Source of the DNA: Octopus vulgaris
Lineage: Eukaryota
Length of the DNA: 64,000 bases
Assembly: GCA_951406725.2 (NCBI GenBank)
Contig: OX597828.1
Coordinates: forward strand, 45,570,001 to 45,634,000
Reading direction: 5' to 3'
Both the position numbers and the translations under genes were made by a program. Of the stretch, positions 24,005-62,067 are shown in pieces. Numbering within the stretch: position 1 is the first letter of the stretch; each line of letters begins with the position of its first letter. The notes under the pieces were generated by a model that was not told the origin of the DNA, did not search any database, and saw nothing but the letters and a program-made list of their open reading frames with translations.

Positions 24005-24760
24005 GAATTTACAAAAAAACAAAAGACAAAGACGGGTGTATAAACAACAAACAGATGTACTAGTTTAACGCACGGGAAGTGAGAAAGTCTTTTACGTTTC
24101 GATCCTACGCTCTTCGACAGAATGGAACAGAGAAATAAACAGGGACAGAAAACGGAAAAAAGGTTTAGAGGCTAGCGATCTATCATGGCGAATGCCGGAC
24201 AGAGGGACCACACAGGAGAGCTAGAACGAAGAGGAGATAATAAAGTAGCGGTGATCCCAAAACGAAGGTGCGCGTGAGTGTGTATGTGAGAGCGTGTACG
24301 TGCGTGTGGAAGAGGGCTGGTGACTTTGACGTGTGCGTGTGTGTATGTGTAGGTGTGTGGATGATGGTGTAGGTGCCGCGAAGTGGTCAGTGCTAGTGTG
24401 TGCGGGTGAAGTGATGTGGTGAGGCGTGGTATGGTGGTGTGTGGTGTGGTAGTGTGTGGTGAGGTGATGTTGGGGTGTGGGGGAGGCGAGAGTGTGGGAA
24501 ACCAGGGTGGGGGTCTAAAGGTTGGGGTGGAGGCGAGATGGGATGTATAGGGATGGGGACATTGGAATGTGTAGGGATGGAGTAACGAGGGAGCAGGTGA
24601 CGATGAAAGGACAGGGGGAAGGGAGGAGGTTGGTAGGAGTGAAGAGAGGAAGTAGGTGTCAGAGCAAGAGAGGAGAGGTGGGTGGGGTGAAGTAGATGTG
24701 AGCGGAAGAGAGGAAAGAGGAGGACGGTTACATGAAGATGAGGTGAGCGTTGAGCCCATA
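24001..24760 (-). mobile_element. PLE-like 3' region with hammerhead-like motif and purine-rich (plus strand) body
   Basis: Starts at (TA)n; homologous to 19771-19950; minus CTGTCGA-A-GAGC-GTAG-GATC-GAAA-CG-TA at 24093-24120. Confidence 0.6.
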
Positions 24761-31677: not shown

Positions 31678-32262
31678 CAAGGGGCTAAACACAGAGAGGA
31701 CAAACAAGGACAGACAAACGGATTAAAGTCGGTTATATCGACCCCAGTGCATAACTGGTCCTTAATTTATCGACCCCCAAAGGATGATAGGCAAAGTCGA
31801 CCTCGGCGGAATTTGAACTCAGAACGTAGCGGCAGTCGAAATACCTATTTCTTTACTACCCACAAGGGGCTAAACACAGAGTGGACAAACAAGGACAGAC
31901 AAACGGTTTAAGTCGATTATATCGACCCCAGTGCCTAACTGGTACTTATTTAATCGACCGCGAAAGGATGAAAGGCAAAGTCGACCTCGGAGGAATTTGA
32001 ACTCAGAACGCAGCGGCAGAAGAAATACCTATTTCTTTATTACCCACAAGGGGCCAAACACAGAGGGGACAAACAAGGACAGACATAGGTATTAAGTCGA
32101 TTACATCGACCCTAGTGCGTAACTGGTACTTAATTTATCGACCCCGAAAGGATGAAAGGCAAAGTCGACCTCGGCGGAATTTGAACTCAGAACGTAGCGG
32201 CAGAAGAAATACCGCTAAGTATTTCGCCCGGCGCGTTAGCGATTCTGCCAGCTCGCCGCCTT
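31678..32262 (-). mobile_element. SINE family C with ~183-bp body in three tandem units
   Basis: Head AGGCGGCGAGCTGGCAGAA..GAGTTCAAATTCC, conserved GCCTTTCATCCTTTCGGGGTCGATAAAT; CAAGGGGC(T/C)AAACACAGAG recurs ~183 bp apart. Confidence 0.88.
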
Positions 32263-44208: not shown

Positions 44209-44620
44209 GGCGGCGAGCTGGAAGAATCGTTGGCACACCGGGCGAAATGCTTAGCGGTATTTCGTCTGCCGCTACGTTCTGAGTTCTAATTCTGCCGAGG
44301 TGTTTGCCTTTCATCCTTTCGGGGTCGATTAAATAAGTACCAGTTACGCACTGGGGTTGATCTAATCGACTTAATCCGTTTGTATGTCCTTGTTTGTCTT
44401 CTCTGTGTTTAGCTCTTTGTGGGCAGTAAAGAAATAGGTATTTCGTCTGCCGTTACGTTCTGAGTTCAAATTCCGCTGAGGTCGACTTTGCCTTTCATCC
44501 ATTCGGGGTCGATTAAATAAGTACCTGTTACGCACTGGGGTCGATGCAACAGACTTAATCTCTTTGTCCGTCCTTGTTTGTCGCCTCTGTATTTAGCCCC
44601 TTGTGGACAATAAAGAAATA
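44209..44620 (+). mobile_element. SINE family C, two tandem body units
   Basis: Head then GGTATTTCGTCTGCCG repeated ~182 bp apart. Confidence 0.88.
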
Positions 44621-44634
44621 TGTATAAATATTTA

Positions 44635-54453: not shown

Positions 54454-55113
54454 ATGTTAACAAAACCAAAAAAGAAAGAACAATTAAAAACCCTTCCCTA
54501 CATCTCTACACACAACCCACTTAACAATGAGGCCTTCAGCACCATACTACAAAGCACAGCCCTACTAAAGGGAGACCCAAAGATGAACCGGATCCTCGAA
54601 ACACACACCATCATTAAAAGTAAACGGCAACCAAAATCCTTGAAAAGGATTTTAACCCAAGCTAAACTGCACCCAACATCAACCACAAAACCAGCAGTTA
54701 GAAAATGTGGAAGGCCCAACTGCGGAATCTGTGTCATCTTAGTAGAAGGTTCAGAATTTATACTAGAACAAGGCCATCAGTTCACCATTAGAACAAACTT
54801 CACCTGTGCATCAGAAAACTTAATTTACGTCTTAACATGCGCAGGCTGCAATAGGCAATATATAGGCAATACAAAAAATAGCTTACGTAACAGGATGGCG
54901 GTGCATAAATCACAAATTAGAAACCCTGAATACCGGAAAATACCGGTAAGCGGACACATAGATAGATGTGCTGCAAATGAAAATCCGAAATTTACAACTT
55001 ACCCACTTTACAAATTCAGTGACAGCGTAACCTTCACGCAACGCCAAAATAAAGAACTTTATTTCATCAAAAAATTTAGACCAAGTTTGAACACCCTGGT
55101 CCAGGAATATTAA
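54454..55113 (+). CDS. C-terminal part of Penelope-like element ORF: Zn-finger linker + GIY-YIG endonuclease
   Basis: 219 open codons: CGRPNCGIC, FTCASENLIYVLTCAGCNRQYIGNT..LRNRMAVH..GH..KELYFIKKF..SLN; Neptune-like architecture; RT missing (5' truncated). Confidence 0.9.
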   Translation: MLTKPKKKEQLKTLPYISTHNPLNNEAFSTILQSTALLKGDPKMNRILETHTIIKSKRQPKSLKRILTQAKLHPTSTTKPAVRKCGRPNCGICVILVEGSEFILEQGHQFTIRTNFTCASENLIYVLTCAGCNRQYIGNTKNSLRNRMAVHKSQIRNPEYRKIPVSGHIDRCAANENPKFTTYPLYKFSDSVTFTQRQNKELYFIKKFRPSLNTLVQEY

Positions 55114-61234: not shown

Positions 61235-61516
61235 CTGTAGAAGCAGAGGTACTATTAATGAATCAGGATTTATGTTGTATGGTTTGTGATGTACCTGCAT
61301 TTGTGTGTGGATATTGTGTATACACACACATATATATGCATGTATATATATATACATATACACGCATTATGCGAGTAAGAATATATACCTACATACATAT
61401 ATATATATATATGTGTATATATATATATATATATATAATTGCAACGTGGAAGGTGTTTATAAGCCATTTAAGAAACTCACAAAAGCCGTTCGATTCACTT
61501 CAACATTTAAGTTTAA

Positions 61517-61566
61517 TTTGTCAAAATATTTTCGTCGCTAAAATCCGCGACCTGTTCACTGACAAA
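61517..61566 (-). ncRNA. Putative minimal hammerhead, G3-C8 core
   Basis: Minus: TTTGTCA | GTGAACA | G | GTCGC-8nt-GCGAC | GAAA | ATAT | TT | TGACAAA; perfect stems I and II; in a ~170-bp module next to (TA)n. Confidence 0.75.
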
Positions 61567-61982
61567 GTCCGTGCTGCATCTAAGAAAGTAACAATTAGTT
61601 CGTCATATATATGTACGTATGTATGTGTGTATGTATGCATACATGTGTGTATGTATGTACGTATGCATGTACGTACATACGCCTGTGTATGCATGTATGT
61701 ATGTATGTATGTATGTATGTATATATGTATATATGTATGTGTGAGTATATGCACGCACATACACACTATAAACATAAAGCTATAAACCTGTAGCGATGGA
61801 TAGATGTAGAGTGACCACTCATCACAATAATATCAAATTTCAACTTCCCCCGGCCGAAGCCTGGAAGTGATTTACGACCCTTACTCCCAAAACTATACCC
61901 TAAAACCTATTATCAGATATTTATCTCTATATCACAGAACTTTTGTTTTACTATTGTGCGTATGTATGTATGTATGTGCGTA

Positions 61983-62067
<85 letters not shown>

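What the first reader, a model, noticed from the sequence alone, without database searches (positions are those of the whole stretch)
61517..61566. Hammerhead with flipped G3-C8 pair and perfect stems
GTGAACA replaces CTGANGA with both partners swapped; 7-bp stem I, 5-bp G-C rich stem II, ATAT palindrome and UU site. A natural double swap is hard to get by decay and would be missed by canonical motif scans.
Basis: partly seen in the sequence, partly recalled or inferred. Interest (0 to 1): 0.7.

Follow-up and report, generated by a model that had tools for sequence, protein, structure and literature searches.

The report
Flipped-core hammerhead of Penelope-like retroelement
This is one of thousands of copies of a jumping gene's end-piece carrying a hammerhead RNA motif whose two paired core letters have traded places, a swap that older related families also carry; it likely still cuts itself, weakly and in pairs, but cutting is untested.

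Summary
Real, on the minus strand: a minimal type I hammerhead with G3-C8 instead of C3-G8. It is not decay. It marks the 3' end of a young Penelope-like retroelement: 17 of 17 ORF-selected loci carry it about 1 kb behind an RT + GIY-YIG frame. The genome has 6,348 pattern matches. Of 70 copies found by flank alone, 62 are G3-C8 and none is C3-G8. A homologous sister family keeps C3-G8. An older family about 73% identical keeps G3-C8 while changing N7, loop II, the length of palindromic loop III and an outer stem I pair, which suggests selection on the fold. Against activity: no pile-up of copy ends at the predicted cut (1 of 100), a predicted G3·U17 mispair and an over-paired dimer, and no usable RNA reads. 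Rfam misses the motif. I found no natural G3-C8 in the papers searched; one key survey (Lünse 2017) was unavailable. The scan already noted this family elsewhere in this genome and similar swaps in other genomes. Verdict: new variant of a known kind, cleavage untested.

The parts
61437..62010 (-). 5'-truncated copy of a Penelope-like element: part of the ~1-kb microsatellite-rich 3' UTR plus the hammerhead module; no ORF; ends before the ~60-nt optional tail; 5' limit approximate (runs into simple repeats)
   Evidence: blastn to ORF-bearing loci L077/L078, 87-90% identity over ~630 nt; tail present in 53 of 100 copies, 41 of 100 end where this one does
61560..61566 (-). stem I, 5' arm
61553..61559 (-). 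core G3 U4 G5 A6 N7 C8 A9 (G3 = 61559, C8 = 61554)
   Evidence: G3-C8 in 62 of 70 flank-anchored copies
61552..61552 (-). extra nucleotide between A9 and G10.1, usual in PLE hammerheads
   Evidence: G in 76 of 77 copies; feature described in PMC4209133
61534..61551 (-). stem II (5 bp, G10.1-C11.1) with 8-nt loop II; the loop differs between subfamilies
61530..61533 (-). G12 A13 A14 A15.1
61524..61529 (-). palindromic loop III (ATAT), U16.1 and U17; predicted scissile bond between 61524 and 61523
   Evidence: a monomeric stem III costs about 5 kcal/mol, the palindrome allows dimer pairing
61517..61523 (-). stem I, 3' arm
   Evidence: the commonest change keeps pairing as U·G (12 of 90 copies; also seen)
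61578..61598 (-). leader holding the preferred 5' boundary of short copies (61578-61585); resembles branch point / pyrimidine tract / AG (AG = 61581-61580) and, in some copies, an initiator; role unresolved
   Evidence: 37 of 100 copies start 17-26 nt upstream of G3; motif resemblance read by eye, consensus recalled
61437..61516 (-). 3' flank of the terminal repeat, homologous to that of the C3-G8 sister family
   Evidence: z 5.8-9.4 against 500 shuffles in 6 of 8 sister copies, not significant in 2 of 8
61389..61436 (.). (AT)n tract at the 3' junction, the usual neighbour of these elements
   Evidence: (AT)n within 130 nt downstream in 65 of 100 copies

Best explanation
The motif is the minimal type I hammerhead in the terminal repeat of a Penelope-like retroelement whose lineage has fixed a G3-C8 core pair, and it likely still self-cleaves, slowly and as a dimer or with protein help. 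Shown: the anatomy, the copy number, the link to an RT + GIY-YIG frame, fixation of G3-C8 in young, middle and old families, and a homologous C3-G8 sister family. From established hammerhead chemistry: position 8 acts through its ribose 2'-OH and is held by pairing with position 3, so the flipped pair can keep the active site, with G12 as general base. Inferred: one copy cannot form stem III (one pair closing a 4-nt loop). Two hammerheads, as in a transcript spanning two tandem terminal repeats, would pair their palindromic loops and cut after U17, trimming the element RNA to unit length. Inferred: RNAs with a single hammerhead stay uncut and are copied whole, which fits the many short copies that begin about 22 nt upstream of G3 and hold the entire motif. 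This genomic copy has no ORF and is a passive, recent insertion.
For: Family fixation: 94 of the first 100 pattern hits and 62 of 70 flank-anchored copies are G3-C8, none C3-G8. Element link: 17 of 17 loci chosen by ORF carry the motif about 1.0 kb after the stop (L066-L082). One has a 1,025-aa open frame with RT motifs, a C-x3-C-x2-C linker and GIY-YIG. Sister family: C3-G8 in 32 of 34 copies, homologous 3' flank, and found behind related ORF remnants in 24 of 30 loci (mostly 35-55% identical to the young protein). Old G3-C8 family: 25 of 30 copies G3-C8. Against the young family it differs at N7, loop II, loop III (AT versus ATAT, both palindromic) and stem I pair 6 (G-C in 14 of 30 versus U-A), with 0 of 11 invariant core and 1 of 20 inner-stem differences against 17 of 76 in the flank (Fisher P = 0.011; core alone P = 0.077). 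Four DNA runs under four organism labels show no variant at 5% or more in core 3-9. The engineered C3G/G8C double mutant partly rescues a PLE hammerhead (PMC11167929, passages).
Against: No cleavage data. Copy 5' ends do not pile up at the predicted cut: 1 of 100 within +34 to +38. The predicted monomer pairs G3 with U17. At 15-20 C the lowest-energy dimer over-pairs the 10-nt palindrome, consuming A13, A14 and U17, about 4-5 kcal/mol below the active dimer; the active dimer is not favoured over two monomers. Within the young and middle families the flank is as conserved as the core, so that conservation shows no selection. The old family was found with a core pattern, so the Fisher test is partly circular; in a flank-only search only 17 of 30 loci kept a recognisable hammerhead, 8 of 17 G3-C8 and 0 of 17 C3-G8. 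The stem II G-C/A-U exchange can arise by CpG decay. 38 of 100 copies sit in head-to-head pairs whose transcripts would bury the motif in double-stranded RNA. In the one PLE tested, uncut RNA was the main insertion substrate (PMC11167929).
Confidence: 0.65

Rival explanations
1. The motif descends from a hammerhead but no longer cuts at a useful rate; the fold is kept as a binding or folding signal for the element's RT-endonuclease protein.
For: No excess of copy ends at the cut; G3·U17 and over-paired dimer predicted; cleavage not needed for insertion in vitro in an anole PLE (PMC11167929); minimal PLE hammerheads are slow even as dimers (PMC4209133).
Against: A binding role does not obviously demand that both 3 and 8 change while N7 drifts and loop III stays palindromic at two lengths.
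Confidence: 0.25
2. The conservation is at DNA level: the segment is an internal promoter or splice-acceptor region starting about 22 nt upstream of G3, and the hammerhead look is inherited but incidental.
For: Sharp 5' boundary of copies at -26 to -17 (37 of 100); Drosophila Penelope has an internal promoter with an intron in the same repeat (PMC2377424, passages).
Against: Stem I pairing is kept through changed letters and loop III stays self-complementary across three families. The one contig joined at the AG boundary maps to a site without a GT donor.
Confidence: 0.08
3. Chance look-alike, or a single decayed copy of a canonical hammerhead.
For: The short fold scores equally on both strands.
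Against: Thousands of identical cores, 0 control hits; 0 such motifs in shuffles of 818 kb of loci; position typical of PLE hammerheads.
Confidence: 0.02

Closest known systems
Minimal type I hammerheads of metazoan Penelope-like elements (Cervera and de la Pena 2014, PMC4209133; read parts 1-2 of 4 of the main text, searched the held supplement text)
   Same: In the terminal repeat of an RT + GIY-YIG element; extra base between 9 and 10.1; G10.1-C11.1; one-pair stem III with palindromic loop; mostly solitary or opposite-strand copies; Rfam-negative here.
   Different: Core pair is G3-C8; the paper reports C3-G8 and U3-A8. Stem I is longer (7 bp versus 4-5 in Schistosoma).
Natural U3-A8 core variants (Perreault et al. 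2011, PMC3088659, passages; PMC4209133)
   Same: Compensatory exchange of the 3-8 pair in nature.
   Different: U3-A8 keeps pyrimidine-3/purine-8 and needs two transitions; G3-C8 reverses that order and needs two transversions.
Engineered C3G/G8C hammerheads (anole Poseidon element, PMC11167929, passages; review PMC8495972, passages; PMC3884650, passages)
   Same: Identical core pair; partial rescue relative to single mutants.
   Different: Laboratory mutants; here the pair is the wild type of thousands of copies and goes with U17 rather than C17.
Neptune/Nematis-type PLEs (Craig et al. 2021, PMC8557442, passages and supplement hits)
   Same: C-terminal GIY-YIG, cysteine linker, inverted 5'-truncated copies, optional tail, (AT)n neighbours.
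   Different: Clade placement not tested by a tree; the optional tail is about 60 nt here versus 30-40 described.

Membership tests
Hammerhead ribozyme (type I, minimal) | Three-way junction with stems I and II and A15.1-U16.1 | tested here: met
   A15.1-U16.1 is read from the sequence and is not in the predicted monomer fold
Hammerhead ribozyme (type I, minimal) | Invariant U4 G5 A6, A9, G12 A13 A14 | tested here: met
   each at least 95% in 70-85 copies; all 11 core letters intact in 55 of 69
Hammerhead ribozyme (type I, minimal) | Consensus letters C3 and G8 | tested here: not met
   G3 and C8; no Rfam hit
Hammerhead ribozyme (type I, minimal) | Watson-Crick pair between positions 3 and 8 | tested here: met
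   G-C here, C-G in the homologous sister family; pairing inferred from covariation, not probed
Hammerhead ribozyme (type I, minimal) | NUH cleavage triplet | tested here: met
   U16.1-U17; U17 in 87 of 88 young/middle and 28 of 30 old copies
Hammerhead ribozyme (type I, minimal) | Site-specific self-cleavage | not testable with these tools
   only contigs available; copy-end proxy shows no pile-up
Hammerhead ribozyme (type I, minimal) | Loop I / loop II tertiary contact | tested here: inconclusive
   only weak duplexes (-2 to -3 kcal/mol) between loop II and the flanks; loop II is not conserved
Penelope-like element, endonuclease-positive | Single ORF with RT and C-terminal GIY-YIG | tested here: met
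   1,025-aa frame in L077; GIY-YIG above the Pfam cut-off; RT motifs by inspection, Pfam RT not hit; absent from the window's truncated copy
Penelope-like element, endonuclease-positive | Hammerhead in the terminal repeat | tested here: met
   17 of 17 ORF-selected loci
Penelope-like element, endonuclease-positive | 5' truncation, inverted partial copies, optional tail | tested here: met
Neptune clade | CX2-5CxxC linker between RT and endonuclease | tested here: met
   C896-x3-C900-x2-C903 in P0001; motif as given in PMC8557442
Neptune clade | RT phylogeny groups with reference Neptune elements | not tested
   no named reference PLE proteins among the 108 hits
Non-LTR retrozyme (tandem hammerhead repeats) | Head-to-tail tandem array of 150-400-nt units (definition recalled) | tested here: not met
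   single copy in the window; copies examined are solitary or head-to-head

The most novel reading that the evidence does not exclude
G3-C8 is a third natural, catalytically active hammerhead core, with purine-3/pyrimidine-8 geometry so far known only from mutants. It has been carried for a long time by a successful Penelope lineage, works only as a dimer, and leaves single-hammerhead RNAs starting about 22 nt upstream uncut, so that they spread as SINE-like end-pieces. Thousands of such ribozymes per genome would be invisible to current searches.
Probability: 0.4. Interest if true: 0.65.

Novelty: new variant of a known kind. Interest (0 to 1): 0.45.

Why it matters
It would extend the natural hammerhead core beyond C3-G8 and U3-A8 and give an evolutionary confirmation of the 3-8 pair by a double transversion between homologous families. 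Descriptor and Rfam searches would be undercounting these ribozymes by thousands in such genomes. It also offers a matched natural pair (G3-C8/U17 versus C3-G8/C17) and a young element with an open frame for asking whether PLE hammerheads need to cut at all.

Tried and rejected
Expression: no RNA holder listed. Four runs guessed to be RNA are contigs only and cannot show ends or strand; not used as evidence. Splicing at the AG 20 nt upstream of G3: one contig (X4) joins exactly there, but its partner site in G000 is followed by TA, not GT, so it gives no splice evidence and may be a polymorphic insertion. A cap-derived extra G at copy starts: too few independent cases, and most are explained by the inverted partner. 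A recurrent G3-C8-like hit with another stem II (L238-L245, L255) lacks stems I and III and is another repeat; that loose pattern gave 129 hits against 97 for its control. About 50 of 58 hits with an A-U pair in stem II are CpG-decayed members of the main family. The L059 ORF lies upstream of one copy but is cut at the junction, so it is not taken as the parent. U17 as a special partner of G3: U17 also occurs with C3-G8 here and in the supplement of PMC4209133, so at most permissive. The 5'-flank comparison was out of register and was dropped. Eight 10-kb stretches served only as extra scan material. Lünse et al. 2017, Przybilski and Hammann 2007 and Martick and Scott 2006 were not held; one supplementary file of PMC4209133 was not searchable and figures are not held.

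Full report
Observation. On the minus strand, 61566-61517 reads as a minimal type I hammerhead: 7-bp stem I, core G3 U4 G5 A6 A7 C8 A9, one extra G, 5-bp stem II with an 8-nt loop, GAAA, a palindromic 4-nt loop III, and U16.1-U17. It folds into stems I and II with z = -3.4, though the plus strand scores alike. Rfam has no hammerhead match at gathering score or at E<=10. It is the only copy of its module in the window.

Copy number and fixation. The genome G000 is 2.8 Gb and looks like an octopus (inferred: the closest named protein relative is from Octopus vulgaris, 57% identical). The 40 best matches to the 169-nt module are 98-100% identical. A 20-nt pattern with positions 3 and 8 free has 6,348 matches and 0 control matches; 94 of the first 100 are G3-C8, six are single changes, none is C3-G8. 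A 27-nt pattern in the 3' flank, outside the hammerhead, has 9,813 matches. I aligned its first 100. Seventy reach past position 3: 62 are G3-C8-U17, 1 more is G3-C8 with a gap at 17, none is C3-G8. Subfamily differences fall in loop II and the flanks; the main stem change is U-A to U·G. Contigs from four DNA runs under four organism labels show no variant at 5% or more in core 3-9, although cover thins over that half.

What carries it. Upstream, in the same sense, lie about 1 kb of microsatellite-rich sequence and then a GIY-YIG frame. All 17 loci chosen for that ORF have the G3-C8 motif about 1.0 kb after the stop. L077 holds a 1,025-aa open frame with RT motifs (found by inspection; Pfam hit only GIY-YIG), a C-x3-C-x2-C linker and an inverted truncated copy at its 5' end. 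That is the layout of an endonuclease-positive Penelope-like element, Neptune/Nematis-type by the linker described in PMC8557442 (passages); I built no tree. The window's copy spans 61437 to about 62000, lacks the ORF and the optional ~60-nt tail, and abuts (AT)n.

Is the swap real covariation? Only 8 sites match the same context with C3-G8, and all belong to other families. One of these is a large sister family: C3-G8 in 32 of 34 copies, mostly with C17 (6 pattern-selected loci were left out of the count). Its 3' flank is homologous to that of the G3-C8 family (z 5.8-9.4 in 6 of 8 copies, not significant in 2). It sits behind related ORF remnants in 24 of 30 loci; 5 had no hammerhead and 1 had a G3-C8 one. 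The first stem I pair is also exchanged (G-C in 21 of 34 versus A-U). A third, older family, about 73% identical to the young one, is G3-C8 in 25 of 30 copies. Between old and young majorities N7, loop II, the length of loop III and stem I pair 6 differ, while 0 of 11 invariant core letters and 1 of 20 inner-stem letters differ, against 17 of 76 in the flank (P = 0.011; core alone 0.077). This test is partly circular, because the family was found by a core pattern. The features not in that pattern are the palindromic loop III, U16.1-U17 and stem I pairing. A flank-only search gave 17 of 30 loci with a recognisable, decayed hammerhead: G3 in 13, C8 in 11, both in 8, C3-G8 in none. The stem II exchange is weak evidence because CpG decay produces it.

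How it likely works. Position 8 contributes its 2'-OH, and C3G partly rescues G8C (review PMC8495972, passages), also in a PLE hammerhead, which cut only with protein present (PMC11167929, passages). So G3-C8 can plausibly keep the active site. A monomer cannot form stem III cheaply (about +5 kcal/mol). Two motifs in one tandem transcript would pair their palindromes and cut after U17, as proposed for minimal PLE hammerheads (PMC4209133, parts 1-2 read). Copy ends fit a motif that is silent as a monomer: 37 of 100 copies start 17-26 nt upstream of G3, a further 18 at -8 to -5 (many probably alignment breaks at a subfamily indel), and only 1 near the predicted cut. The boundary could be a transcription start or a 3' splice site; the one junction I could test was not a splice.

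Against activity. The predicted monomer pairs G3 with U17; a 3-17 mispair is the trap discussed in PMC3884650 (passages). At 15-20 C an over-paired dimer is 4-5 kcal/mol more stable than the active one, and the active dimer does not beat two monomers. These models ignore the tertiary core. 38 of 100 copies are in head-to-head pairs that would bury the motif in duplex RNA. No raw RNA reads were available.

Comparison with what is known. Natural U3-A8 is published (PMC3088659, passages; PMC4209133). I found no natural G3-C8 in five full-text searches or in the held supplement text of PMC4209133 and PMC8557442. Lünse et al. 2017, a large survey of PLE hammerhead variants (scope recalled, not read), was not held, and figures cannot be searched; either may bear on novelty. 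Earlier scan notes describe this family at other places in this genome and similar swaps in other genomes; they are unchecked AI notes and are not counted as support.

Verdict. Observation confirmed; a real, old, family-wide G3-C8 hammerhead variant of a Penelope-like element; catalysis likely but unshown. New variant of a known kind, interest 0.45.

Noticed in passing
window 23546 (-) and 23761 (+): Two minimal hammerheads with a U3-A8 core and palindromic CGCG loop III, head-to-head, in another repeat family. Three 3-8 pairings thus occur in this genome.
   Followed up: no
window about 24085-24125 (-): A further hammerhead-like motif at the end of another repeat, with a 6-bp stem II, a CG loop III and a core deviating at positions 3-4.
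   Followed up: no
window 54490-54972 (+): Remnant of a second Penelope-like ORF, 70% identical to the L059 frame.
   Followed up: no
L077 2968-6045 (-); L078 3922-6441 (+): Young Penelope-like copies with open frames of 1,025 and 839 aa; the family looks recently active.
   Followed up: partly
L228 about 1525: Site that is empty in G000 but joined to the element's 5' boundary in one contig of run X4; possibly an insertion polymorphism.
   Followed up: partly
L084 and L085, 1501-1560: A fourth related family with a C3-G8 core and a shorter stem-loop II.
   Followed up: no
L047 1572-2120 (+): An intronless 182-aa frame resembling dCMP deaminase (motifs recalled) directly behind a hammerhead copy; a nearly identical insertion lies about 6 kb away. 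Possibly a retrocopy fused to the element.
   Followed up: no
window 31678-32213 and 44256-44625: Tandem 184-nt units, probably SINE-derived arrays.
   Followed up: no
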